From the NCBI RefSeq assembly GCF_004010195.1, contig NC_057724.1, positions 43,822,641-43,867,616 on the forward strand: DNA of 44,976 nucleotides. Direction: 5' to 3'. How positions within the stretch are numbered: position 1 is the stretch's first letter; every line of letters starts with the position of its first letter. This document shows positions 1 through 41,400 of this stretch, piece by piece. Source of the DNA: Chiloscyllium plagiosum (taxonomy: Eukaryota). A program made the translations under genes and the position numbers. The notes below the pieces were generated by a model. The model was not told the DNA's origin. It ran no database searches and saw only the letters and a list, made by a program, of their open reading frames with translations.

Positions 1-282
1 AGCTCCTTTTCCACCTATCCACTCCACCCTCTCCTCCCTGACCTATCACCTTCATCTCCTTCCCCACTGACCAATTGTACTCTATGCTATTCTCTCCCCA
101 CCCCCACCCTCCTCTAGCTTATCTCTCCACGCTTCAGGCTCTCTGCCTTTATTCCTGATGAAGGGCTTTTGCCCGAAACGTGGATTTTGCTGAAGCTCCT
201 CGGATGCTGCCTGAATTGCTGTGCTCTTCCAGCACCATTGATCCAGAATCTGGTTTCCAGCATCTGCAATCATTGTTTTTAC
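1..282 (+). mobile_element. Penelope-like element terminal-repeat fragment (family A) with hammerhead motif
   Basis: A pyrimidine-rich tract is followed by CCTGATGAAGGGCTTTTGCCCGAAACG and GCTCCTCGGATGCTGCCTG. The same sequence recurs at 27743-27797 (minus) and 40949-41043. The Penelope assignment is inferred from the minimal hammerhead and the fold-back structures of related copies. Confidence 0.75.
152..185 (+). ncRNA. Minimal hammerhead ribozyme motif, probably inactive (GUG at cleavage triplet)
   Basis: CTGATGA 155-161, extra A, stem II GGGC/TTTT/GCCC 163-174, GAAA 175-178, then CGTG. Hammerheads need NUH (H not G) at the cleavage site. Confidence 0.7.
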
Positions 283-1103
283 CACATATCAAAGCAACAG
301 ACTTCAAAATGGCAGCTTTATCATTCACTTTATCCTTTTACCTTCAGGAATAACATATTTCCCAAATACCTTTTTTTCTTTCAGAAAGCCGATCACTAAA
401 GAGAATCTGATGTTTCTCTTCCCTTTTTGCCTGAACAGTTTTTTGTGGGGAATCTGTAGACGGGATAAGCGTTTACATTCCTTTATTAACAATGCTGTGT
501 ATTAACCGTCTTTATTGAATAGGTTTCTTTGAAATAAACCAATAGTCGTGATTATTAAGAGGCCTAATTATTAGATCTTTATGTATAACCTGACACAAAT
601 CAGGTGTATAGTTGGCCATCTACGTAATTGGGAAAAGCACTTTTTATTTTATGTTATGATCAGTGGAGCAATGGGACTAGAGTGATGGTGTATTCCTCCA
701 GCCTTGGTTGTATCACTGCATTCAAAATGGCTGCATTGAGATTCAATATTACAATATCCAGCCTTAATCCAACATTATCTCTTTCTCTCTACTTTGATCA
801 TATAAGCCACCCAAATGTGCTACATATAGAAGCCTCATAATTCTTAATACTTTCAGCCCAGCCTACCATGCAGATGAAACTGATGCTTCAGCCCATTTTA
901 TCTTATTCTTCCAAAATACCAAGCCTTCCACCTTTGTATTAAGATACCCAGCACTTTTCTTACAATAAAAATATCCCCCATCTTGACATCAACCCCCTAC
1001 AGAGTAACTGAGATGTTCATTATTCTTTATAAAAATACACTGATTTTTTAGAATCAAACTTAAATTCGTCCTTTAAAAGCTGAAGCCTGCAGTTCAGTCA
1101 TAC

Positions 1104-4248: not shown

Positions 4249-4480
4249 GTGGAGTTTGCACATTCTCCCAGTGTCTGCGTGGGTTTCCTTCGGGTGCTCT
4301 GGTTTCCTCCCACAGTCCAAAAATGTGCAGATTAGGTGAATTGGCCATGCTAAATTGCCCGTAGTGTTAGGCGAAGGGGTAAATGTAGGGGAATGGGTCT
4401 AGGTGGGTTGTGCTTCAGCGGGTCGGTGTGGACTTGTTGGGCCGAAGGGCCTGTTTCCACACTGTAAGTAATCTAATCTA
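4249..4480 (+). mobile_element. HE1-like (V-SINE) SINE, 5'-truncated
   Basis: GTGGAGTTTGCACATTCTCCCC...GGTTTCCTCCCACAGTCCAAAAATGTGCAG...GGGCCGAAGGGCCTGTTTCCACACTGTA with an ATCTA-repeat tail. Same family as 13495 and 33716. Confidence 0.9.
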
Positions 4481-4987
4481 GATGTACAGCATGAAAACAG
4501 ACCCTTCGGTCCAACTCATCCATGCCGACCAGATATTCCACCACAATCGAGTCCCACCTGCCAGCACCCAGCTCATATCCCTCCAAACCCTTCCTATTCA
4601 GATATCTATCCAGATGCCTTTTACATCCTGTACCTCAGGATTCCCTCCAATAACTTGCCAACCATTGACATCAAGCTCACACTATAGTGCCCAGGCTTGT
4701 CCTTACCACCAGTCTTAAATTGTGGCACCACATTAGCCAACCTCCAGTCTTCCAGCACCTCATCTGTGACTATCAATGATACAAATATCTCAGTAAGAGG
4801 TCCAGCAATCACTTTACTAGCTTCCCACAGAGTTCTCGGGTTTACCTGACCAGGTCTTAGGGATTTATCCACTTTTATGCGTTTCAAGACATCCAGCATT
4901 TCCTCCTCTGCAATATGGACATTTTTCAAGGTATCACCATCTATTTCCCTACAGTCTATATCTTCCATGTCCTTTTCCATAGTAAAT
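4481..4987 (-). mobile_element. CR1/HER1 LINE: 3' tail (4481-4622) fused to a pre-RT ORF2 segment (4623-4987)
   Basis: ORF 4621-5022 gives LKRIKVDKSLRPGQVNPRTL...DWRLANVVPQFKTGGKDKPGHY, a CR1 ORF2 signature. The tail matches 15343-15500. Confidence 0.9.
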
Positions 4988-4988
4988 A

Positions 4989-5035
4989 GTTGGACCGAAG
5001 GGACTGTTTTTGTGCTGTACATCTCTATGACTCAA
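4989..5035 (+). mobile_element. HER1 LINE 3' tail fragment, inverted relative to 4480-4515
   Basis: GTTGGACCGAAGGGACTGTTTTTGTGCTGTACATCT is close to the reverse complement of 4480-4515. Confidence 0.8.
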
Positions 5036-5711: not shown

Positions 5712-5806
5712 CTCAGTCAGCAAATATTAATAAATTGTAAGGGCTTGACTTTATTCGTTAGGACCAGCACAACACCGTGCTCAATGCCTTAAACTATTCT
5801 GCATCA

Positions 5807-5936
5807 TGATGTAAAGGAGCTGGTGTTGGACTGGGGCGGACAAATTTAAAAATCACACAACACCCAGTTACAGTCCAACAGGTTTGTTTGAAGGAGCAGC
5901 GCTCTGAAAGCTAGTGCTTTCATCAGGTAGTTGTGG
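5807..5936 (-). mobile_element. Penelope-like family B short element with 12-bp TSD and internally inverted ribozyme core
   Basis: Flanked by TATTCTGCATCA at 5795-5806 and 5937-5948. The body matches 24880-25004. Confidence 0.85.
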
Positions 5937-6109: not shown

Positions 6110-7961
6110 AGGCAAATGTAGGTGCCTCACAATCAGAAACAGAGGCAGTTATTATGGGGGATAAAAAGATGACAGAATAATTAAATGCATACTTTAGTTC
6201 TATATTCAAAAAAGAGAACATAAATAACATTCCAAAAAATATTGGGGAACACAGGGTCTAGTGAAACGGAGAAAAGAAGGAAATTCATATTAGTAGGGAA
6301 AAACTTGATGGCATTAAAGGCTCAAATCCCCAGGGCCTGAATGTACATCCCAGAGTACTTAATGAGTTAGCTCCAGAACTTTGGTGGTCATCTTTCAAGA
6401 TTCTACAGACTCTGGAACAGTTCTTTGAATTGGAGGCTACCAAATGCAACATCACTATTTAAAAAAGCAAAGAGAGAAAACAAGAAATTAAATGACTGGT
6501 TTGACATCAGAAAGGGGGAAAATACCAGAGTCAATTACACAAGATTTAAAAGCAGAGCACTCAGAAAACAGAAAAATCAATATGTACTTTGGAAAAGCAA
6601 ATCATGGTGGAAACAATACTAGAACTATTCGAGGATGTAACTCGTAAAGTTGATAAGAGGAAGTCAATGGATGTGGTTTACTTGAACTTTCCGACGGCCT
6701 GTGATAAGGTCTCATGAAAGATATTCGGATGTAAAATTAATGTGTTTGGAACTTAAGGTGGTCTGGATAGAGAACTGGTTGGCAGACAGAGTGTAGGATT
6801 AAAACAAATCTATGAAACAGTGACTAGTGGGGTAGTACAGGAATCAGTGCTGGGCCCCAGCTATTCACAATAACTATTAATGATTTAGATGAGCAATTTA
6901 CATCCAATATCTCCAAGTTTGCAGATGACACAAAGTTGGGGGTGAGGGTGAGCTGTGCGGAGGATGTGGAGATACTTCAGTGAGATTTGGGCAAGGTGAG
7001 TGAATGGAAATGCTTGGCAGATGAAGTGTAATGTGAAAAAATGTAAGGTTATCCACGGTAACAAAAAGCAAGAAGGCAGATTATTATCTGAATGATGATA
7101 AACTGGGAAAGGTGAAAGTGCAATGAGACCTGTGTGCCGACAGAAAACAAAAAAACGCTGGCAATGAAGCAGGCCAAGCAGAATCCACGGAGAGAACGCA
7201 AGCTAACGTTTCTAGTCTAGATGACTCTTCATCAGGGCTAGAGATCCTAGATGTCCTTGTACAGCAGTCGCTGAAAGTCAATGTGCAGATGCAGCAGGCA
7301 GTGAAGGAGGCAAATGCTATAATGGCCTTCGGTGAGAGGATTAGAGCACAGCAGCCGGGATGTTTTCTGTAATTATACAGAATTTTGAGTGCAACCACAC
7401 CTGGAATATTATATGCAGTTTTGATCTCCTTACCAGAGGAACTATGTTCTGGCAATGAAGTGAGTGCAACAGAGAATTTGTTCCTACCTTTACCAGCCTG
7501 ATTCCTAGAATGGCAGGGCTGATGTATGAAGAGAGACTAGGTTGGTTAGGATTATAGTAATTGGAGTTTATAAGAATGAGGGGAGATCTCACGGAAACAC
7601 AAAATTCTAACAGGACTAGCCAGGGTAAACACAGAAGGACATTCCCAATATTTGGGAGTCCAGAGCCATGAGTAATATTCTAAGGATACAGGATAGACCA
7701 TTTAGGACAGAGATGAGGAGACATCTTTTCATCCAGAGAGTGGAGAGCCTGTGGAATTCTCTGCCACAGAAAATGATGTCACAACAGTGAATCTATTGAA
7801 AAGGGAATTATATAGTTCTTAGGGTAAAAGGGATCAAAGGATAGGGGGAGAAAATAGGAACAGAGTGCTGAGCAGGATTATCAGCCACGATCATACTGAA
7901 TGGTGGAGCAGTCTCAAAGGACTGAATGGTCTAATCCTGCTCCTGGTTCTATGTTTCTTAT
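6110..7961 (+). mobile_element. CR1 LINE ORF2 (RT) and 3' UTR, degenerate
   Basis: Remnant motifs WRLPNATSLFKK and VTSGVVQESVLGPQLFTITINDLDE...SKFADDTKLG (about 6820-6940), plus a CR1 3' end CTGAATGGTCTAATCCTGCTCCTGGTTCTATGTTTCTTAT. Many stops and frameshifts. Confidence 0.92.
7140..7240 (-). mobile_element. Penelope-like family C insert with hammerhead motif, nested in the CR1 LINE
   Basis: Minus strand AGCC-CTGATGA-A-GAGTC-ATCTA-GACTA-GAAA-CGTT-AGCT. It interrupts the CR1 sequence, whose GAGACCTG..TG.CC segment appears degraded on both sides. Confidence 0.75.
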
Positions 7962-13494: not shown

Positions 13495-13846
13495 CAGTGG
13501 TTAACACACTGCTGCCTCACAGCGCCAGGGACTCAGGTTTGATTCCTGCCTTGGGCGACTGTCTGTGTGGAGTTTGCATATTCTTATATCTGCATGGGTT
13601 TATTTTGTGTGCTCCAGTTTCTTCCCACAGTCCAAAGATGTGCAGGTTAGGCAGATTGGCCATGCTAAGTTGTCCGTAGTGTCAAAGGATGTGCAGGCTC
13701 GATGGATTAGCCATGGGAAAAGCAGGGTTACAGGGATAGGGTGGGGGATATGGTCCTGGGTGAGTTGCTCTTCAGAGGATCAGTGTGGACTCGATGGGCC
13801 AAAAGACGTACTTTCACACTGCAAGGATGCTATGATTCTTGGATTC
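13495..13846 (+). mobile_element. HE1-like (V-SINE) SINE, near full length
   Basis: tRNA-like head CAGTGGTTAACAC...GGTTTGATTCC, core GTGTGGAGTTTGCA...CCCACAGTCCAAAGATGTGCAGGTTAGG, and a LINE-derived tail. Confidence 0.9.
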
Positions 13847-15342: not shown

Positions 15343-15693
15343 GAATCATAGAGTCAGAGAGATATACAGCATGGAAACAGACCCTTCGGTCCAACCTGTC
15401 TATGCCAACCAGATATCCCAACCCAATCTAGTCCCACCTACCAGCACCTAGCCCATATCCCTTCAAACCCTTCATACACCCATCCAAATGCCTCTTAAAT
15501 GTTGCAATTGTACCAGCCTCCACCACTTCCTCTGGCAGCTCATTCCATCCATGTACCACACTCTGTGGAAAAAGTTGCTCCGTGGGTCTCTTTTATATCT
15601 TTCTCCTCTCACCCTAAACCTATGCCCTCTAGTTCTGGACTCCCCGACCCCAGGGAAAAGATTTTGCCTATTTACTCTATCCATGCCCCTCAT
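15343..15693 (-). mobile_element. CR1/HER1 LINE 3' end
   Basis: ORF 15472-15693 MRGMDRVNRQNLFPGVGESRTRGHRFRVRG is the CR1 ORF2 C-terminus. It is followed by the HER1-type tail. Confidence 0.93.
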
Positions 15694-15706
15694 ATTATAT
15701 AGATAA

Positions 15707-15838
15707 ATAAAACAAAGAACTACAGATGCTGGAAATCTGAAACAAAAACAGAAATTGCTGGAGGAAATTCAAGTCTGGCAGCTTCTGTGGAGAGAAAGCT
15801 GCCAGACATGCTGAGTTTCTCCAAAATCTTCTGTTTTC
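15707..15838. mobile_element. Penelope-like family C fold-back fragment
   Basis: AAAAACAGAAATTGCTGGAGGAAATTCAAGTCTGGCAGC ... GCTGCCAGACATGCTGAGTTTCTCCAAAATCTTCTGTTTT forms an imperfect inverted repeat. Confidence 0.7.
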
Positions 15839-16140
15839 CATTTATATACAGCCGTTAATAATCACCAGATATTCCAAGCTGCTTTGTAACCAGTGAAGTA
15901 ATGCAGAACACATGACAGATATTTTGCATAAAAACACTCAAGGTGCATTAATAATCAGATAATCTGTTTGATTTGTAATGCTGATTGAAGAATAAATAAT
16001 TTGCCAGGGTAGAAGGGTTAGGTCACAAGGGGTCCTTTTCAGAATTGTGGGTCCAAATGAGGGAGACGATGGGCCTCAGTTTAACATCTCATCTGAAAGA
16101 CAACATCTCGCAGCACTGCACTGGAACATAAGTCTTGATT
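15839..16140 (-). mobile_element. Deu-domain SINE (SacSINE1/AmnSINE1-like)
   Basis: GGGCCTCAGTTTAACATCTCATCTGAAAGACAACATCTC...CACTGCACTGG is the reverse complement of the Deu core. Its extreme tail (TTGCATTTATAG) appears at about 15330, left of two nested insertions. Confidence 0.7.
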
Positions 16141-21474: not shown

Positions 21475-21830
21475 TCATAGGGTGTGGATAGGTTTGGCTA
21501 AGTCAAGATTTATCTCCCATCCCTAATTGCCTTTGAGAAGGCAATGGCAAACTGCCTTCTTGAATAACTTTATCCATCCCCGTCCAACACCGGCACCTCC
21601 ATCTTACATCATCTTGAACCACTGCAGTCCATGTGGTGTAAGTACACCCACAGTTCTGTCAGGAACAGATTCCAGAATATTGACCCAGTGGCAATGAAAG
21701 AACAGCAATACAGTTCAAAAGGCAGCTGCTTTGCCCTGGATGGTTTTGAGCTTTGAGTGTTTTAGGAGCTGCGCCTATTCAGGCAAGTGGAAACTACTGT
21801 ATTGCAATCCTTATGGTTTGTGGACAGAAG
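21475..21830 (-). mobile_element. LINE 3' fragment (same family as 12770-13220) inserted in the Gypsy RT
   Basis: CCCATCCCTAATTGCCTTTGAGAAGG...CTGCAGTCCATGTGGTGTAAGTACACCCACAG. Confidence 0.7.
21565..21611 (+). mobile_element. 47-bp terminal stub of Penelope-like family B with 7-bp TSD
   Basis: CCGTCCAACACCGGCACCTCC...ACATCA, flanked by TCTTGAA at 21558-21564 and 21612-21618. Confidence 0.7.
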
Positions 21831-23040: not shown

Positions 23041-23408
23041 GGGAAATTAGGGTCATTGAATCAACCAAATAACCTTCATGAGAAATTTGCTTGTGATTCC
23101 ACAATCCTGCAATAAAACTATCCATACTCAGATGTAGAACACAAAATATGGAGACAAATATCAGCCACAGCTAGTACCTCCAGGATTGGAGAGCAGAAAA
23201 GTAGGAAAGCATTCATTCATTCTTCTTCATAATGGTCAACCATTTACAAGCTTGACCTCCTTTAGCGACCATACATGTTCACTATCACTGGTAGCAGATG
23301 GTTCAGCAGGAGACAAAAGTGCAGCTACATGTTTGCTTGTCTTTGATGATTCTGCTATCAATATTTTACCACAGCTTCTATTTCTCATCTGTTAGCCAGA
23401 TAAGATGT

Positions 23409-23749
23409 TGGCTAACACCAATTGTTACAGTTAACCTGAGAATGTAACTTTTAAAAAAAAAGTTTTGTGATTTACAATATAAAAGAAGTGAAACTATCAT
23501 GGTATTCAAACAGATGAAAAGACTCAACAAGCAATCAAGGTATTTGTCAATGTATAATTTCAGTTACATCACACTGTAAACTTTTGCTATAAATTGTGTG
23601 TCTTAACAATTGTGTCCTCCACAACCACCTGATGAAGGAGCGACGCTCCGAAAGCTAGTGCTTCCAATTAAACCTGTTGGACTATAACCTGGTGTTGGGC
23701 GATTTTTAACTTTGTACATCCTAGTCCAACACCGGCAACTCAAAATCAT
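23409..23749 (+). mobile_element. Penelope-like family B terminal repeat
   Basis: Highly similar to the reverse complement of 24447-24760. Ends GTCCAACACCGGCAACTCAAAATCAT. Confidence 0.85.
23626..23660 (+). ncRNA. Minimal type I hammerhead ribozyme, intact core
   Basis: CAC-CTGATGA-A-GGAGC-GAC-GCTCC-GAAA-GC-TA-GTG: stem I CAC/GTG, stem II 5 bp, palindromic AGCT stem III, CUA cleavage triplet at 23655-23657. Confidence 0.85.
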
Positions 23750-24088
23750 AACCTAAATTAGATGCTGTGTTCACTTGATAAGCTCAAGCAACCCAGATGA
23801 AATATATAAACCTAGTAAGCTGCCTTGGAATTAATATTTTAAATCAAGTAGCATTGGAACTCAAAGAGGCATCAAGAAATTTACATCTCTTGTTTTACTT
23901 GCATTTGCATGATATCTGAACAAATTGAGATGAAAAAAATGCCTACAACTATTAATGACACAGACACCGTACCCAGAAAGGAGTGGTATATCAACAGCAG
24001 TCATTGAATAAAAAAGGTAAGAAACAGTAATATGAATGGGGAACAGCAAGGAATCTGGAAGCTCTTCTCTCTCTCTCTAATGACAGAT

Positions 24089-24249
24089 GGGGAGCTGCCA
24101 GTGTTGGACTGGGATGGATAAAGTCACAAGTCAAGTTATAGTCCAACAGGTTTATTTGAGCGCAGCTCCTTCATCAGCCATGCTCCAAAAGCTTGTGATT
24201 TCAAATAAACTGGTTGGACGGTAGCCTCGTGTCATGTGACTTCTGACTG
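24089..24249. mobile_element. Older family B fold-back element with imperfect 11-bp TSD
   Basis: Inverted arms GTCCAACAGGTTTATTTGA / TCAAATAAACTGGTTGGAC. Flanks TAATGACAGAT (24078-24088) and TAATCACAGAT (24250-24260). Confidence 0.7.
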
Positions 24250-24917
24250 TAATCACAGATACCAACATCAATTAATCAAGCAGCTCTGATAACTCATCAT
24301 GGAGCAGCAACTCAAGATCTGGAAACTTCACCACTGCTAAAGAAATAGAACAGTTAGACTTGCGTATGTTCATTCTCACAACTAAAAAGACTCCTAAACC
24401 AAAAGTAACTGCAATTGTAGTTCTTGTCTCTGCTGTGTTTGAGGTTATGATTTGGAGATACAAAGTTAAAAATCACACAACACCAGGTTATAGTCCAACA
24501 GGTTTAATTGGAAGCCCACTAGATTTCGGAGCGTCGCTCCTTCATCAGGTGATTGTGGAGGGCTTGATCGTAACACAGAATTTATAGCAAAAATTTGCAG
24601 TGTGATGTAACTGAAATTACACATTGAAGAATTGATTGTCTGTTAAGCCTTTCATCTGTTAGAATACAGTGATAGTTTCACTTCTTTCATGTGTAAATCA
24701 CAAAACCCTTTTTTTAAAAGTTGCATTCTCGGGTTAGCTGTTAACAATGGTGATAGCTAGACAATATGTTGAAGGTGTTAGCCCCCTGTGTTCTCTGTCT
24801 ATGACCTGATGTTTAGATTGATTCCAACCTAAAAAGTGAGATAACAGAGTTTTACATAAATTCATTCATCTCCGAATCATGATTTGGAGATGCCGGTGTT
24901 GAACTGGGGTGTACAAA

Positions 24918-25090
24918 GTTAAAAATCACACAACACCAGGTTATAGTCCAACAGGTTTAATTGGAAGCACACTAGCTTTCGGAGCGACGCTCCTTCGTCA
25001 GGTGATCCGGATGAAGGAGCGTTGCTCCGAAAGCAGTGTGCTTCCAATTAAACCTGTTGGACTATAACCTGGTGTTGTGTGATTTTTAAC
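24918..25090. repeat. Long near-perfect inverted repeat (arms about 84 bp, spacer about 6 bp)
   Basis: GTTAAAAATCACACAACACCAGGTTATAGTCCAACAGG... pairs with ...CCTGTTGGACTATAACCTGGTGTTGTGTGATTTTTAAC. Confidence 0.95.
24970..25004 (-). ncRNA. Minimal hammerhead ribozyme, intact core
   Basis: Minus strand CAC-CTGACGA-A-GGAGC-GTC-GCTCC-GAAA-GC-TA-GTG. Confidence 0.85.
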
Positions 25091-30404: not shown

Positions 30405-31817
30405 AAAATTGGAGATAGGAGGATGGCTAATGCGATGCCATTATTTCAGAAAGGTGGTAAGAGAAAGCGAGGGAACTATAGATTGGTGAGCCTGATATTG
30501 GTGCTGGTTAAGTTTTTGGACAGGATTGAAATATATTTGGAAAGACAAGGATTGATTAGGGATAGTCAACATGACTTTGTAGATGGGAAATCATGTCTCA
30601 CAAATTTGATTGAGTTTTTTTGACAAGTGACAAGAAGGTTGATGAAGGTAGAGCAGTGGATGTTCTCAATATGGACATCAGCAAGGCTTTCGACAAGGCT
30701 CCACATGGTAGGCTTGTTAGCAAGGTTAGATCACATGGAATCCACAGGGAGCTAGTCACTGAATAAAAAAATTGGCTTGAAGGTAGGAGACGGAGGGTGG
30801 TGGGATGAAGGATTGCCTTTCAGACTGGAGGCCTGTGACCAGTGTGCCACAAAGATCGGCCCTGGGTCCACTGCTTTTTGTCATTTATATAAATGATTTG
30901 GATATGAATATAGAACGAATGGTTAGAAAGTTTGCAGATAACACCAAAATTGGTGATGTAGTGGACAGCAAAGAAGAGTACAATGGGATCTTGATCAGAT
31001 GGGTCAGTGGGCCAAGGAGTGGCAGACGGTGTTTAATTTAAATAAATGTGAGGTGCTGCATCTTGGAAATCAGGACTTATTCACTTATTAGTAAGGTCCT
31101 GGGGAGTGTTGCTGAACAAAGAGATCTTGGAGTGCAGGCTCATAGTTCCTTGAAGGTGGAGTCACAGATACATAGGATACTGAAGGAGGCCTTTGGTACA
31201 CTGGCCTTTATTTGTCAGAGCATGGAGTATAGGAGTTGGGAAGTCACGTTGCAATTGTAAACGAAGTTGGTTAGGCCACCTTTGGAATACTGTGTTCAAT
31301 TCTGGCCTCCCTGCTACAGGAAAGATGTTGTGAAACTTGAAAGAATGCAGCAAAGATTTACAAGGATGTTGCCCAGGTTGGAGGATTTGAGCTACAGTGA
31401 GAAGCAGAATAGGCTGGGGCTGCTTTCCCTGGAGCATCGGAGGCTAAGGGGTGACCTTATAGCGGGTTATAAAATCATGAGGGGACATAAATAGAGTGAA
31501 TAGCCAAAGTCTTTTCCCCTCAGAGTAAAACTAGAGGGCAGAGGTTTGAGGTCAGAGGGAAAAGATTTCAAAGGGATCCAAGGGACAGCCTTTTCACAGA
31601 GGGTGATGCGTGAATGGAATGAGTTGCTAGAGGGAGTGTTGGAGGCTAGTACAGTTATAACATTTAAAAGGCATCTGGGTGGGTATATGAATAGGAAGGG
31701 TTTGGAGGGACATGGGCCGCGTGCTGGCAAATGGGACCAGATTAATTTAGGATATCTGGTCAGCGTGGATGGGTTGGACCAAACAGTCTGTTTCCATGCT
31801 CTATATCGCTATGACTC
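30405..31817 (+). mobile_element. CR1/HER1 LINE, 5'-truncated RT and 3' tail
   Basis: GNYRLVSL, QHDFVDGKSCLTNLIEFF, PQRSALGPLLFVIYINDLD...KFADNTKIG, RPPLEYCVQFW, RRLRGDLI, and the HER1 tail GGGTTGGACCAAACAGTCTGTTTCCATGCT. Confidence 0.95.
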
Positions 31818-32521
31818 ATTAACTGTTTTCTCCTTCATTAATGCCTCCCCAATGCAATGGCACCCTTCAACCAGCACCAGTAAGAAATCAAATGGAAAAA
31901 GCATTAGCCATTTCACAGACTGAGCGCCCACAACAGGGAACAATGTGATGCATCAGAAACACATTTCTAAGCTAGCAAGTAAAAGGATTTCACATCTGCT
32001 CGACCAATGAAAGGGGCTTTGAAGGCAAAGCTAATGTTTCCAATGTTGCAAGGCACCAGCTGTCTTCCCTTGACTCAGAGAGATTTTGGCCCTTGACCTT
32101 GACACTCTGCCATACACAAATCCCAACTGCAAACCTTCATATCTCTTTCAATCATTGGTTTTCAGAGTCTTGCAGATAGCCCTTCTAGAGATGGCTATCT
32201 CAAAGCTGAAACCACAACCCTCTCCAGAGTGTGACCACACAGAAAAAACAGCATTGCTGACTGCCTTGTTAACTACTTCCATATGTGTACACAGTTCCAT
32301 TTTAAGCTTACAAGAAGATGACACCATTCCCAATTCCACAGAATAATATTTCATGGCCAAAAATTTTGTACATAAATTAGAATATTTTACAGAACTCTCC
32401 AAAGCAACTCGTTATGGAATCCTGACTGCATGTACTACTGAACACTGTTTTTCCTCCAGTCTTAGCCCATTCTCTGTTAATGCTGCTGGTTACTAACCTT
32501 TATTACTCCCTTAAATAAAGT

Positions 32522-32651
32522 TAAAAATCACAATCAGGTGCCTGAAGAAGAAACAGCATTCTGAAAGCTAGTGCTTCCAAATAAGCGTGTTGGACCATAA
32601 CCTGGTGTTGTGTGATTTTTAATTTTGTCCAACACCAGCTCCTCTACATCA
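32522..32651 (+). mobile_element. Short family B element with inverted 5' stub and 15-bp direct repeats
   Basis: TCCCTTAAATAAAGT at 32507-32521 and 32652-32666. Decayed core CTGAAGAAG...GAAAGCTAGTG. Confidence 0.8.
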
Positions 32652-33715: not shown

Positions 33716-34003
33716 AGATTGATTAGATTAGATTTCCTACAGTGTGGAAACAGGCCCTTCGGCCCAACCAGTCCACACCGACCCTCGAAGAGTAACCTAC
33801 CCAGACCCATTTCTTAACACTATGGGCAATTTAGCATGGCCAATTCACTAACCTGCACATCTTTGGACTGTGGGAGGAAACCAGAGCACCTGGAGGAAAC
33901 CCAAGCCGACACGAGGAGAACGTGCAAACTCCACACACTGGAATTGAACCTGGGACCCTGGTGCTGTGAGGCAGCAGTGCTAACCACTGAGCCACCCTGT
34001 CAC
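33716..34003 (-). mobile_element. HE1-like SINE
   Basis: Minus strand GGTGGCTCAGTGGTTAGCACTGCTGCCTCACAGCACCAGGGTCCCAGGTTCAATTCC head, V-core, and ATCTA tail. Confidence 0.92.
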
Positions 34004-34742: not shown

Positions 34743-35078
34743 AGGTGGAACAGGCAAAGAACAAGATTCACAGTCTTCCTCACTATTTAATGGCATCTGC
34801 TGTGTGCCCTTTTCCTCCCCATCACCAAATCACCATGATATTTTGCCATCCATTAACCAACGCCATTAAAATAACCCATGTTTTCCAATCAATAGATGTG
34901 CAAAGCCAGTTAAAGTTAATGCAAACCATCCAAGGTGAGAACATGCATACAGTTAAAGACGCGGTAAGAATCAATCTCAGCTGTGATGTCTTCACATCTG
35001 AATATTCTGCTAATTTCACATGTAAAGATTGCCCATTTCAAGTGGTTCTGAGAGTTGGAGTCACAGATATATATATTT

Positions 35079-36410
35079 CCAACTCGTCCATGCCGTGCAG
35101 ATAGCCTAACCTAATCTAGTTCCATTTGCCAGCACTTGGCCCATATCCCTCTAAACACTTCCTGTTCATATACCCATCCAGATGCCTTTTAAATGTTGCA
35201 ATTGTACCAGCCTTCACCACTTCCTCTGGCAGCTAATTCCATACGTGTACCACCCTCTGCATGAAAAAGTTTCCCCTGAAGTCCCTTTTATATCCTTTCC
35301 CTCTCACCCTAAACCTATGCCCTATTGTTCTGGACTCCTGCACCCCAGGGAAAATACTTTGTCTATTTATCCTATTCATGCCCCACATGATTTTATAAAC
35401 TTCTATAAAGGTCACCCTTCAGCCTCAGATGCCCAAGGGAAAAAAGGATCAGCCTATTCAGCCTCTCCCTATGGCTCAAAGCCATGTTGACTATTCCTAA
35501 TCAGTCCTTGCTTTTCCAAACACATGTACAACCTGTCTCTTAGGATTCGCTCCAATAACTTGCCCACCACCGATGTCAGGCTCACCGGTCTATAGTTCCC
35601 TGGCTTGTCCTTACCACCTTTCTTAAACAGTGGCACCATGTTAGCCAACCTCCAGTCTTCCAGCACCTCACCTCATCAGTGATTACTGATGATATAAATA
35701 TCTCAGCAAGGGGCCCAGCAATCACTTCCCTCGCTTCCTACAGAGATCTATGGTACATCTGATCAGACTCTGGGGATTTATCCACCTTTGTGTGTTTCAA
35801 GACATCCAGCACCTCCTCATCTGTAATATGGAGATTTTTCTAGATGTCACCATCTATTTCCCCCCATTCTATATCTTCCATATCCTTTTCCACAGTAAAC
35901 ACTGATGCAAAATACTCGTTTAGTATCTCACCCATCTCTGGAGCTCCATACACAGGCCGCCTTGCTGATCTTTGAGGGACTCTATTCTCTCCCTAGTTAC
36001 CCTTTTGTCCTTAATGTATTTATGAAAATCCCTTTGGATTCTCCTTAACTCTATTTGCCAAAGCTATCTCATGTCCCCTTTTTCGCCCTCCTGATTTCCC
36101 TCAAGTATACTCCTATTGCCTTTTTACTGTAAGAATTCGCTCGATCTCTCTTGTCTATACCTGACATATGCTTCCTTCTTTTTCTTAACCAAACCCTCAA
36201 TTTCTCTAGTTTTCCAGCATTCCCTATACCTACCAGCCTTTCCTTTCACCCTAACAGGAATATACTGTCTCTGGACTTCGTTATCTCATTTCTTAAGGCT
36301 TCCCATTTTCCACCTGCCCCCAATCAGCTTTTGAAACTTCTTGCCTGAAACCGTCAAAGTTCCTCCAATTTTGAGCTTCAACTTTTAGATTTGGTCTGTC
36401 CTTTTCCATC
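35079..36410 (-). mobile_element. CR1/HER1 LINE with internal deletion of the RT core
   Basis: ORF 35469-35666 (DWRLANMVPLFKKGGKDKPGNYRPVSLTSVVGKLLE...QHGF) joins directly to the ORF2 C-terminus (ORF 35233-35415) at about 35480. Confidence 0.93.
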
Positions 36411-37451: not shown

Positions 37452-37656
37452 TACAAAGTTAAAAATCACACAACACCAGGTTATAGTCCAACAGGTTTAT
37501 TTCGAAGCACTAGCTTTCAGAGCACTGCTCTTTCATGTCGCAACCACCTGATGAAGGAGCAGAGCTCTCAAAGCTCGTGCTTCCAAATAAACCTGTTGGA
37601 ACTATAACCTGGTGTTGTGTGATTTCTAACTTTGTACACCACAGTCCTCCAAATCT
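37452..37656. mobile_element. Family B fold-back element with two head-to-head hammerhead remnants
   Basis: Inverted repeat 37452-37536 vs about 37550-37636. The plus-strand core has CAAA instead of GAAA, and the minus-strand core is 5'-truncated. Confidence 0.85.
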
Positions 37657-38349
37657 TATCTAAAAGATTAGCCAATCACTAAATTTCATTTGGATCACGT
37701 GATGCAACATGCTGTACAATACGCATGCATGTGCACAATTTAAAACTCAAAAGTATTTGGACAGGTTAGAGCACAGAATTTAAACACTACTTCAAATTAA
37801 TAAAACCTTTAATGAAAATGGCTAATTAAAAATTTACACTTTGTTCCTGTCCATTAAGTTCACTTGAGAAATACATACTGGTCCTTTTTCCACTTCCCCA
37901 TTGGTGGTACAGTGATTAAATGTACACGGTGTGGACTCAGCAATATAAACCAGAATGCCCTGATTTAGTTTTTGGAAGCTGCTGAGTTAGCAAAGTCTAG
38001 GTCATAATCTGACAACCATGACAAACAGCTCCATAGCAGCTGAGACAATGGATGACATTCTAAAACAATCAACATTTTTTAAAAGGTTAATAGATCCTAT
38101 CTTCCAATGCTAAGTGATCCTTTGCAAAAAAATTCAAAAGTCTGTTCCACATCTTCACCAAAAGTTTATCAGTTCTTCCCTGCTTCATACGCTGTGTGCC
38201 AAGTTTCATTGAAACCCATCAATTAGTTTGAGACATGTTGTCTACAAGCAATGGATAAACAGAGCTGAAAACATTACCTGCATTCATCCTCAGGAGCAAG
38301 ATTAATAAAGACGTTCACAGTGAGAACGTGAGCCAGGCAGTAGGTTTTT

Positions 38350-40239: not shown

Positions 40240-41400
40240 GCACTAACCTCATCGACAAACCTGATCACTACCTCAAAAAAATCAATCAAATTTGTTCGAC
40301 AGGCTGGCCCTCTGAAATCCATGCTGACTATCCTGAATCAAAGCTTGCCCCTCCCAACTGGAAATTAAGTCTCTCCTTCAGAACTTTTTGCGATAGCTTC
40401 CCTACCACTATGGGAGACCCACTCATCAATAATCCCTTGATTTATCCCCATCACCCTTGATGAAAAAATTGAGCCATATTATCTATCTTCCAGTCCTCTG
40501 GTATCTTGCCTGTGGACAGAGGGGAATTAAAAATTTAGGTCAGAGCCCCTGTAATGTCCTCCTTCATCTCTCAACAGTCTAGAATACAATTCTTCTGGTT
40601 CGGAGAATTTGTCCACTTTCAAACCTGCTAAAACCAGCAATACCTCTTCACTCGCTGTCAAACTACTCAAGAACCTCAGTCCCTCTTCCCGAATTCTGTA
40701 CCTGCACCCTCCATCTTCCAAGTGGAGACAAATGTAAAGTGCTTGTTTAACACTCTACCTCTGACTGCGCGCACAATTGCCCTCTTGGTTCCTAGTGGGC
40801 CCTACTCATTCCCTGGTTACCTTCTTCCAATTAGTTCACTTGGAAAATAGCTTTGGATTTTCCTCAATTTTACCTACTAGTGCTTTTTTCAAATGTACCC
40901 TCTCTAATTGCTTTAAGTCACCACCATCTCCTCCCCGCCATGGGGCCTATTGCAGATGAAGGGCTTTTGCCCGAAACGTTGACCTTCCTGCTCCTCGGAT
41001 GCTGCCTGACCTGCTGTGCTTTCCCAACACCATACTCTCGACAGTTATTCTGATGGCCTCTGTTGATTTGCTCCCTCTGTACCTGCTAAAAACACTTTTC
41101 CTTCTTATCCAGTCATGAGTATTTCCAGACATCCAGAGTTGGCTGGGGTTACTGCACTTACATTTCACCCTACAGGGAACATATTGGGCCTATAGTTTTC
41201 CCATTTCCTTTTTGATCACACCCTCACTGTTTTGCTATAGGTTTCCCACAAATGGCTGTTCCCAGTTTGCTTTGGCCAGATCTTGCCCTATTTTAATAAA
41301 ATCTGCCTCCCTCCAATCCAGAACCATATTTGCAGACCCGCTTTTTCCCCTTTTCATAACAAATTTAAACCATATGGTGCTCGAGACGCCACAACCACCC
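40240..41400 (-). mobile_element. Decayed CR1 LINE ORF2 5'/middle part
   Basis: ORF 40527-40721 EEVLLVLAGLKVDKFSEPEELYSRLLR. CCATGCTGACTATCCTG reads QDSQHG on minus. Likely the continuation of 38853-39465, split by the plus-strand CR1. Confidence 0.8.
40949..41043 (+). mobile_element. Penelope-like family A fragment; hammerhead core mutated (CAGATGA)
   Basis: CAGATGAAGGGCTTTTGCCCGAAACGTTGA...GCTCCTCGGATGCTGCCTGACCTGCTGTGC matches 155-235. Confidence 0.8.

What the first reader, a model, noticed from the sequence alone, without database searches (positions are those of the whole stretch)
23626..23660. Three families of short hammerhead-bearing retro-derivatives; intact minimal ribozyme here
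Seen in sequence: families A (GGGC-TTTT-GCCC, GAAACGT), B (GGAGC-NNN-GCTCC, GAAAGCTA) and C (GAGTC..GACT, GAAACGTT) have different stem II sequences but share CTGANGA + extra A + GAAA + a loopless palindromic stem III (ACGT or AGCT). About 14 insertions occur in 45 kb, some as stubs that have lost the core. Established: Penelope-like elements carry minimal hammerheads with palindromic stem III proposed to act as dimers, and an extra A after A9 is tolerated in some natural hammerheads. Inference: shark genomes may host very abundant non-autonomous, retrozyme-like ribozyme elements that are poorly described.
Basis: partly seen in the sequence, partly recalled or inferred. Interest (0 to 1): 0.75.

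Follow-up and report, generated by a model that had tools for sequence, protein, structure and literature searches.

The report
Penelope end: hammerhead then poly(A) site
This is a real but known kind of tiny self-cutting-RNA (hammerhead) motif in a broken-off end piece that likely comes from a very abundant Penelope-like jumping gene, and RNA reads show that transcripts of this repeat family get their poly(A) tail 27-30 bases after the predicted cut site, which would put one ribozyme at each end of the element's full-length RNA.

Summary
The motif is real. 23626-23660 meets every sequence rule of the minimal hammerhead described in Penelope-like elements (3 full matches in the window, 0 in 300 shuffles). 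About 15 insertions of three families occur, but only two cores are canonical. The "fixed short retrozyme" reading is not supported. The motif sits in a ~345-bp piece. Family copies have variable 5' ends, head-to-head inversions, 12-15-bp target duplications and an optional 33-39-nt tail. The one tandem junction is a one-off, and the body continues upstream in other copies. These are Penelope hallmarks, although the parent RT/GIY-YIG ORF could not be reached. This scan noted shark Penelope hammerheads before, in this genome and others. Genomic copies run past that site, so they were likely copied from RNA not ended there. With a likely start just before the ribozyme, the full mRNA would be terminally redundant, with one hammerhead at each end. 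This lone copy is likely inert. Known kind, with one testable new detail.

The parts
23626..23660 (+). Minimal type I hammerhead motif (stem I 3 bp, CUGAUGA, extra A, stem II 5 bp, GAA, AGCU palindrome, H17 = A23657)
   Evidence: sequence
23405..23749 (+). Whole family B piece holding the motif: 5'-truncated end of a longer element; left edge within 23405-23419; no target duplication found
   Evidence: DNA read depth rises from about 8-23 to above 40,000 at the left edge and falls back after 23764
23588..23593 (+). TATAAA, 38 nt before stem I; likely promoter box (inferred, start site not measured)
   Evidence: sequence; 4 short sense copies start at positions equivalent to 23619-23628
23667..23672 (+). 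Polyadenylation hexamer ATTAAA; the T23668A variant (AATAAA) is in about half of DNA depth
23684..23687 (+). Poly(A) addition sites of family B transcripts (655 and 824 reads), 27 and 30 nt after the predicted cut
   Evidence: run X21; reads come from many copies, not shown for this locus
23692..23712 (+). GU/U-rich stretch downstream of the poly(A) site (position fits a downstream element; function inferred)
   Evidence: sequence
23711..23749 (+). Optional 33-39-nt tail ending at ...ATCAT; the inverted copies at 25007 and 37452 lack it
24447..25089 (.). One compound insertion: inverted tail-less copy (25007-25089 +) head-to-head with a partial tandem on the - strand (hammerheads at 25004-24970, canonical, and 24551-24517, stem III changed; cut sites 453 nt apart); 14-bp target duplication at 24433-46 and 25090-103
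5807..5936 (-). Short family B copy with an internal inversion through the hammerhead; 12-bp target duplication
32522..32651 (+). Short family B copy with a fold-back 5' end and a decayed stem II; 15-bp target duplication
37452..37658 (.). Head-to-head pair of family B copies; the + copy has G12C; no target duplication found
24086..24262 (.). Old, decayed head-to-head family B pair
21565..21611 (+). Tail-only family B piece between 7-bp repeats (may be chance)
1..290 (+). Family A end piece running off the window start; hammerhead at 152-185 with G at position 17
40948..41033 (+). Family A stub, core changed (U4A)
7150..7240 (-). Family C stub, hammerhead at 7238-7202 with a G10.1-A mismatch

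Best explanation
The motif is a sequence-perfect minimal hammerhead inside a 345-bp broken-off end piece that likely comes from a Penelope-like retrotransposon, and this lone copy is predicted not to cut itself for lack of an intact same-strand partner. Shown: the family has variable 5' ends, head-to-head inverted copies, target duplications of 12-15 bp, an optional tail, a longer shared upstream sequence, and transcripts polyadenylated 27-30 nt after the predicted cut site. From the literature: Penelope reverse transcription starts inside the RNA at the tail, and minimal hammerheads cut poorly and only as dimers or with the element's protein. Inferred: the terminal repeat works like U3-R-U5. 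Transcription would start about 30 nt after TATAAA, just before stem I. The same repeat at the 3' end would end the mRNA at the poly(A) site, so a ~65-nt repeat holding the whole ribozyme would sit at both ends. Copying primed at the tail would run to the RNA's 5' end and give the ~130-bp stubs. Longer copies such as this one would need a jump to the 3' repeat, or passage round a circle made by the two hammerheads, and then stop early.
For: Descriptor and shuffles. Same layout as published Penelope motifs, including an AGCU palindrome in a turtle, and A at position 17 with a CAC/GUG stem I in a shrimp element. Target duplications at 4 of 7 family B insertions (14, 15, 12, 7 bp). Head-to-head or fold-back 5' ends at 4 of 7, as described for Penelope elements. 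3' ends pile up at ...ATCAT(GA) with unrelated flanks, agreement 0.35-0.38 in the contig runs. Upstream continuation shared, agreement 0.69-0.81 in 4 of 4 runs. Poly(A) loose ends in 1,479 of 4,061 laid reads; depth of reads with the first mate on - falls from 1,746 to 282 across the site, while first-mate-+ depth falls from 390 to 327 and DNA depth 1.7-fold. Internal initiation at the tail and protein-assisted cutting in the anole element.
Against: No RT or GIY-YIG ORF was linked: no genome is held, 0 of 131 window ORFs hit such a family, and protein and DNA collection searches were empty or irrelevant. The start site is not measured. The RNA depth step at 23615-29 can come from read length, the DNA step from subfamily divergence, and RNA reads extend upstream of the proposed start. 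Neither lay listed a pile of molecule ends, including at the cut site, though poly(A) capture would lose a ~30-nt product. The predicted double hammerhead (-16.3 kcal/mol) is no better than two monomers (-16.2) and far weaker than a stem II-swapped duplex (-28.9 to -35.4). The poly(A) data come from one run; the second RNA run gave 0 reads. No target duplication at this copy. D. virilis Penelope has a TATA-less internal promoter.
Confidence: 0.8

Rival explanations
1. A non-autonomous retrozyme-like family: a non-coding unit with hammerheads that is cut out, circularised and copied by a Penelope enzyme in trans.
For: No coding sequence seen in any copy. Depth 420 nt upstream of the 3' end is still about 0.5-0.7 million summed. 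One partial tandem with hammerheads 453 nt apart. Retrozymes are reported in one chondrichthyan and derive from Penelope ends.
Against: The tandem junction is a one-off (depth 274) and is a small fold-back palindrome. 5' ends vary from 47 to over 420 nt. No head-to-tail array among the 3 rows. The hammerhead is minimal, not the canonical form typical of retrozymes.
Confidence: 0.12
2. The poly(A) result is an artefact: oligo-dT priming on A-rich flanks of genomic copies that happen to end at 23684-87. This rival touches only the new detail, not the Penelope reading.
For: Only the top 6 loose-end rows per DNA run were shown (926 rows hidden). A weaker A-rich signal appears at the tail end, where DNA copies do end (87 + 61 reads, agreement 0.47-0.49). 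One RNA run only.
Against: The element is not A-rich after 23687. The sites lie 12 and 15 nt after a hexamer, with a GU-rich stretch behind. None of the 12 DNA loose-end rows shown lies at 23684-87. The sharp depth drop is confined to one mate direction of the RNA run.
Confidence: 0.1
3. This copy is a domesticated host switch (ribozyme before a poly(A) site, as in mammalian Clec2 3' UTRs).
For: Perfect core here, and a poly(A) site that the family uses. The Clec2 precedent is described.
Against: Intactness is expected from youth (P = 0.36). Only 49 of 4,061 reads are 99% or more alike to this copy. No host exon was identified. No intact same-strand partner nearer than a decayed copy 8.9 kb away.
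Confidence: 0.04

Closest known systems
Minimal hammerheads (min-HHR) in pLTRs of metazoan Penelope-like elements, Cervera and de la Pena 2014 (PMC4209133; parts 1-3 of 4 and supplement file 2 part 2 read)
   Same: Core, extra nucleotide after A9, G10.1-C11.1, palindromic 15.2-16.2, short stem I, mostly solitary copies, opposite-strand pairs
   Different: No shark row in the part of the alignment read and 0 hits for 'shark' in that supplement; copy numbers there are thousands, here likely hundreds of thousands; no poly(A) site mentioned in the parts read
EN+ Penelope-like elements (Penelope/Poseidon, Neptune): Arkhipova 2013 (PMC3846280, passages), Craig 2021 (PMC8557442, passages and section 10)
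   Same: 5' truncation, partial tandem, inverted head-to-head copy, optional 30-40-bp tail, target duplications
   Different: ORF not reached here, so clade not assigned; target duplications 12-15 bp against 8-10 bp in the rotifer examples
Poseidon of Anolis carolinensis, Frangieh 2024 (PMC11167929; parts 1-3 of 4 read)
   Same: Hammerhead near the tail; two 3' end classes; no RNA ends seen at the cut site
   Different: There the ORF starts inside the hammerhead; here a likely ATG lies about 90 nt after the cut, with a poly(A) site in between
Non-LTR retrozymes, Cervera 2020 (PMC7229834, passages) and Li 2026 (bioRxiv 10.64898/2026.07.22.740005, parts 1-3 of 5)
   Same: Type I hammerhead, short dispersed pieces, link to Penelope ends
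   Different: No fixed unit, no array with two complete hammerheads, minimal rather than canonical ribozyme
Retroviral LTR U3-R-U5 layout (own knowledge)
   Same: Promoter box, start, poly(A) signal and site within one terminal repeat; would give terminal redundancy
   Different: Works-like comparison only; no tRNA primer site, integrase ends or PPT were looked for, and the start site is inferred

Membership tests
min-HHR of PLEs | CUGANGA and GAAA core around a stem II | tested here: met
min-HHR of PLEs | Extra nucleotide between 9 and 10.1; G10.1-C11.1 pair | tested here: met
   A23636; G23637-C23649; features listed
min-HHR of PLEs | Palindromic 15.1-16.1 with no loop; UH cleavage site; stem I of 3 bp or more | tested here: met
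   AGCT, A23657, CAC/GTG; similar rows
min-HHR of PLEs | Self-cleavage as a dimer or with protein help | not testable with these tools
   folding alone does not favour the active dimer; no end pile-up in poly(A) reads
EN+ Penelope-like element | ORF with telomerase-like RT and GIY-YIG endonuclease | tested here: inconclusive
   none in the window; no genome; searches empty
EN+ Penelope-like element | Variable 5' truncation of a longer parent | tested here: met
EN+ Penelope-like element | Inverted 5'-truncated copy head-to-head; partial tandem | tested here: met
   4 of 7 inverted or fold-back, 1 of 7 partial tandem
EN+ Penelope-like element | Optional 30-40-bp tail at one end | tested here: met
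   33-39 nt; the inverted copies at 25007 and 37452 lack it
EN+ Penelope-like element | Target-site duplication | tested here: met
   4 of 7 family B insertions; none at the 23405 copy
Non-LTR retrozyme | Tandem repeats of a fixed short unit with two or more complete hammerheads | tested here: not met
   one partial tandem with one broken hammerhead and a unique junction; this window only
Non-LTR retrozyme | Canonical type I hammerhead with a stem III loop | tested here: not met
   loopless minimal form; Li 2026 also accepts minimal forms
Non-LTR retrozyme | Abundant circular RNA | not testable with these tools
   only poly(A) reads and contigs were available

The most novel reading that the evidence does not exclude
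The Penelope terminal repeat is a true U3-R-U5 unit whose ~65-nt R region is cut to fit the ribozyme: the RNA starts 2-7 nt before stem I and is polyadenylated 27-30 nt after the cut. Only a full-length mRNA then carries two hammerheads, which pair end to end, remove cap and tail, and leave an exact unit ready to circularise; the same R allows a retrovirus-like strand jump. As a by-product, hundreds of thousands of stubs scatter working poly(A) sites through the host genome.
Probability: 0.3. Interest if true: 0.65.

Novelty: new member of a known kind. Interest (0 to 1): 0.4.

Why it matters
How Penelope-like elements make their terminal repeats and what their hammerheads do is still open. 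A mapped poly(A) site just behind the ribozyme gives one end of the element's RNA and makes two models testable with standard RNA methods: strand jump through a terminal repeat, or circle by double cleavage. It also predicts that this very abundant repeat ends some host transcripts and should be depleted on the sense strand of introns. The ribozyme motif itself, and this particular copy, are ordinary.

Tried and rejected
No whole genome is held, so no genome-wide count or parent assembly. Rfam: 6 matches up to E = 5, none a hammerhead; the MIR845 and mir-5892 hits are the head-to-head inverted repeat, below gathering score. Family B patterns found 0 matches in metagenome contigs, viral contigs (32) and prokaryote genomes (75); a family A pattern found 0 in viral contigs (76). 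Word-index protein searches with read-through frames of family A and B ends found nothing (one search was in a frame other than the one intended). The HMMER search gave one hit, P0001, a 4,178-aa repetitive T/A/S/V-rich protein matched in 16 short stretches; rejected. Pfam on 131 stop-free stretches of 68 aa or more: 2 with weak hits below cut-off, none RT or GIY-YIG. No RNA holder was listed as on record; run X22 gave 0 laid reads (no test). No splice joint was seen in RNA reads, so a possible acceptor in the tail is unsupported. Core-versus-flank conservation could not be settled: only 40 of 113 variant rows were shown. None is a substitution in the core or stems and the loop varies strongly, but the 37 nt after the ribozyme are nearly as invariant, and a 2-nt insertion at 23657 marks one subfamily. 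Hairpins around the hexamer are not significant alone (z -0.6 to -1.1). Lunse 2017 (PMC5785218) is not held; seen only as cited.

Full report
Observation. Positions 23626-23660 (+) read as a minimal type I hammerhead: stem I CAC/GTG, core CTGATGA, an extra A, a 5-bp stem II with a 3-nt loop, GAA, the palindrome AGCT in place of stem III, and A23657 as the cleavage-site base. A structural descriptor found 5 core+stem II hits in the window, 4 with a palindrome and 3 complete, against 0.09, 0.007 and 0 per window in 300 shuffles. A plain pattern gave 4 matches against 0.01. By hand I count 15 insertions (7 B, 4 A-like, 4 C-like; 5.7% of the window). Only two cores are canonical, 23626 (+) and 25004 (-). 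The best A copy has G at position 17, the best C copy a G10.1-A mismatch, and 32539 passes only by a weak alternative stem. That the host is a shark rests on my recall of its repeats and on unchecked notes of this scan, not on a call of mine.

What carries the motif. It is not a 35-nt or fixed short unit. Contigs of two DNA runs, from two species labels, cover 23405-23750 at summed depth up to 7.9 and 8.8 million, against 8 and 5.6 in the flanks. The tool warns that this is no copy number. The ratio (about 0.6-1.6 million) and the window density (9 pieces per 45 kb, about 200,000 per Gb) both point to hundreds of thousands of copies or more. Target duplications flank 4 of 7 family B insertions: 14 bp at 24433/25090, 15 bp at 32507/32652, 12 bp at 5795/5937 and 7 bp at 21558/21612 (the last may be chance); the 23405 copy has none. 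Four of 7 have a head-to-head or fold-back 5' end and one has an internal inversion. The 3' ends fall in two classes 33-39 nt apart, and the inverted copies at 25007 and 37452 lack the tail. These are the features described for Penelope-like elements: 5' truncation, partial tandems, an adjacent inverted copy and an optional 30-40-bp tail (PMC8557442 passages; PMC3846280 passages).

Retrozyme test. The insertion at 24447-25089 holds two hammerheads 453 nt apart and could be a retrozyme monomer. Laying 4 runs on 24770-24930 rejects this. Depth at the tail-to-body junction falls to 274 in X1, against 141,610 and 665,104 on either side, and the junction is a small fold-back palindrome. Reads leaving the body at 24865 continue with one shared sequence (agreement 0.69-0.81 in 4 of 4 runs), so this copy is a truncation of something longer. 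Contigs leaving the tail at 24877-24880 continue into unrelated AT-rich flanks (agreement 0.35-0.38). At 24877 the five letters next to the element are the same in 3 of 3 contig runs and read ATG ACT AC on the sense strand, which likely marks a common continuation such as an ORF start (inference). I could not reach the ORF: no genome is held, 0 of 131 window stretches hit RT or GIY-YIG, and searches gave nothing usable. A long non-coding parent therefore remains possible.

RNA. Run X21 (single-cell poly(A) library, raw reads, same species label as the best DNA holder) gave 4,061 laid reads of 12,955,460 records read; X22 gave 0. Loose ends made of A follow 23684 (655 reads) and 23687 (824 reads): 1,479 of 4,061, or 114 per million records. 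The sites lie 12 and 15 nt after ATTAAA (AATAAA in about half of DNA depth), ahead of a GU/U-rich stretch, and 27 and 30 nt after the predicted cut. Depth of reads with the first mate on - drops from 1,746 to 282 across the site; first-mate-+ depth goes from 390 to 327 and DNA depth falls 1.7-fold. None of the 12 DNA loose-end rows shown lies there, but 926 rows were hidden, so that control is partial. The loose parts have a median of 68-69 letters, which fits barcode plus oligo-dT (own knowledge; the kit is not named). Only 49 of 4,061 reads are 99% or more alike to this copy, so the result is about the family. These RNAs run through the cut site uncut and extend upstream through the body; no pile of ends was listed, although a ~30-nt product would be lost. 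A weaker A-rich signal at the tail end (87 + 61 reads) may be priming on flanks.

Likely mechanism. Genomic copies run 23-65 nt past the poly(A) site, so they were likely not primed on the poly(A) end. That agrees with internal initiation at the tail shown for the anole element, where the hammerhead cut only with protein, was dispensable in vitro, and left no RNA-seq ends (PMC11167929). TATAAA lies 38 nt before stem I, and the 4 short sense copies begin at positions equivalent to 23619-23628. I took the start-site idea from earlier notes of this scan and tested it only on these copies; RNA and DNA depth steps there are confounded by read length and subfamily divergence. If the start is right, the repeat has a ~65-nt R region holding the entire ribozyme, present at both ends of a full-length mRNA. 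Stubs of about 130 bp would be copies that reached the 5' end. Longer copies such as 23405-23749 would need a jump to the 3' repeat, or a circle as proposed in PMC4209133. The upstream poly(A) signal would have to be ignored, as in retroviral 5' LTRs (own knowledge). Against easy cutting: the double hammerhead scores -16.3 kcal/mol, two monomers -16.2, and a stem II-swapped duplex -28.9 to -35.4; in the natural tandem the swap is predicted to dominate (nearest-neighbour energies ignore tertiary contacts and folding kinetics). This copy has no intact same-strand partner nearby, and its perfect core needs no selection (P = 0.36 from about 10 private changes in 345 nt).

Comparison and novelty. 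The motif, the extra nucleotide and the palindrome are in PMC4209133, whose alignment has an AGCU palindrome in a turtle and a shrimp element with CAC/GUG and A17. Penelope-like expansion is reported in the whale shark (bioRxiv 10.1101/443036 passages). A 2026 preprint derives retrozymes from Penelope ends and finds them in one chondrichthyan; its supplements are closed and may list this family. This scan has noted shark Penelope hammerheads many times, and one note mentions a hammerhead before a poly(A) signal in 3' UTRs. I found no paper mapping a poly(A) site behind a Penelope hammerhead in the search listings, nor in term searches of PMC2377424 and PMC7229834; the library lacks most subscription papers. 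PMC6155905 and PMC6765202 were seen as passages.

Verdict. Observation confirmed, interpretation partly supported, a new member of a known kind. The mapped poly(A) site is the one addition and makes the terminal-redundancy model testable. Interest 0.4.

Noticed in passing
window 24970-25004 and 24517-24551 (-): The stem II regions of the two tandem hammerheads are exact reverse complements over 13 nt, so they are predicted to pair with each other rather than form the active dimer.
   Followed up: partly
window 23657: A 2-nt insertion right after the cut site is in 633 of 2,589 RNA reads, about 4.5% of X1 depth and about 0.1% of X14 depth: a subfamily that expanded under one species label and is over-represented in RNA.
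   Followed up: no
window 24770-24800: Depth is 222,000-635,000 in X1 but 7,000-206,000 in X14, and 23480-23510 shows a similar gap: the two species labels differ in which subfamilies amplified.
   Followed up: no
window 24877-24880 (-): Minor A-rich RNA loose ends at the tail end (87 + 61 reads, low agreement); a second poly(A) site or priming on flanks.
   Followed up: no
window 23706-23726 and 24905-24925 (-): A TTAAC motif, a pyrimidine-rich run and AG in the tail resemble a splice acceptor; no RNA joint was seen.
   Followed up: partly
window 15715-15845: An inverted pair of family C-like ends that has lost the hammerhead core.
   Followed up: partly
window 4249-5033, 13495-13825, 15351-15701, 30418-31817, 33724-33989, 35078-35899: Other dispersed repeats, recalled as CR1-type LINE 3' ends and HE1-type SINEs; the labels come from memory, not from a call.
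   Followed up: no
window 184-300, 40982-41060, 7120-7203: The family A and C copies show no AATAAA or ATTAAA in the 78-116 nt after their hammerheads, so the poly(A) layout may be specific to family B.
   Followed up: partly
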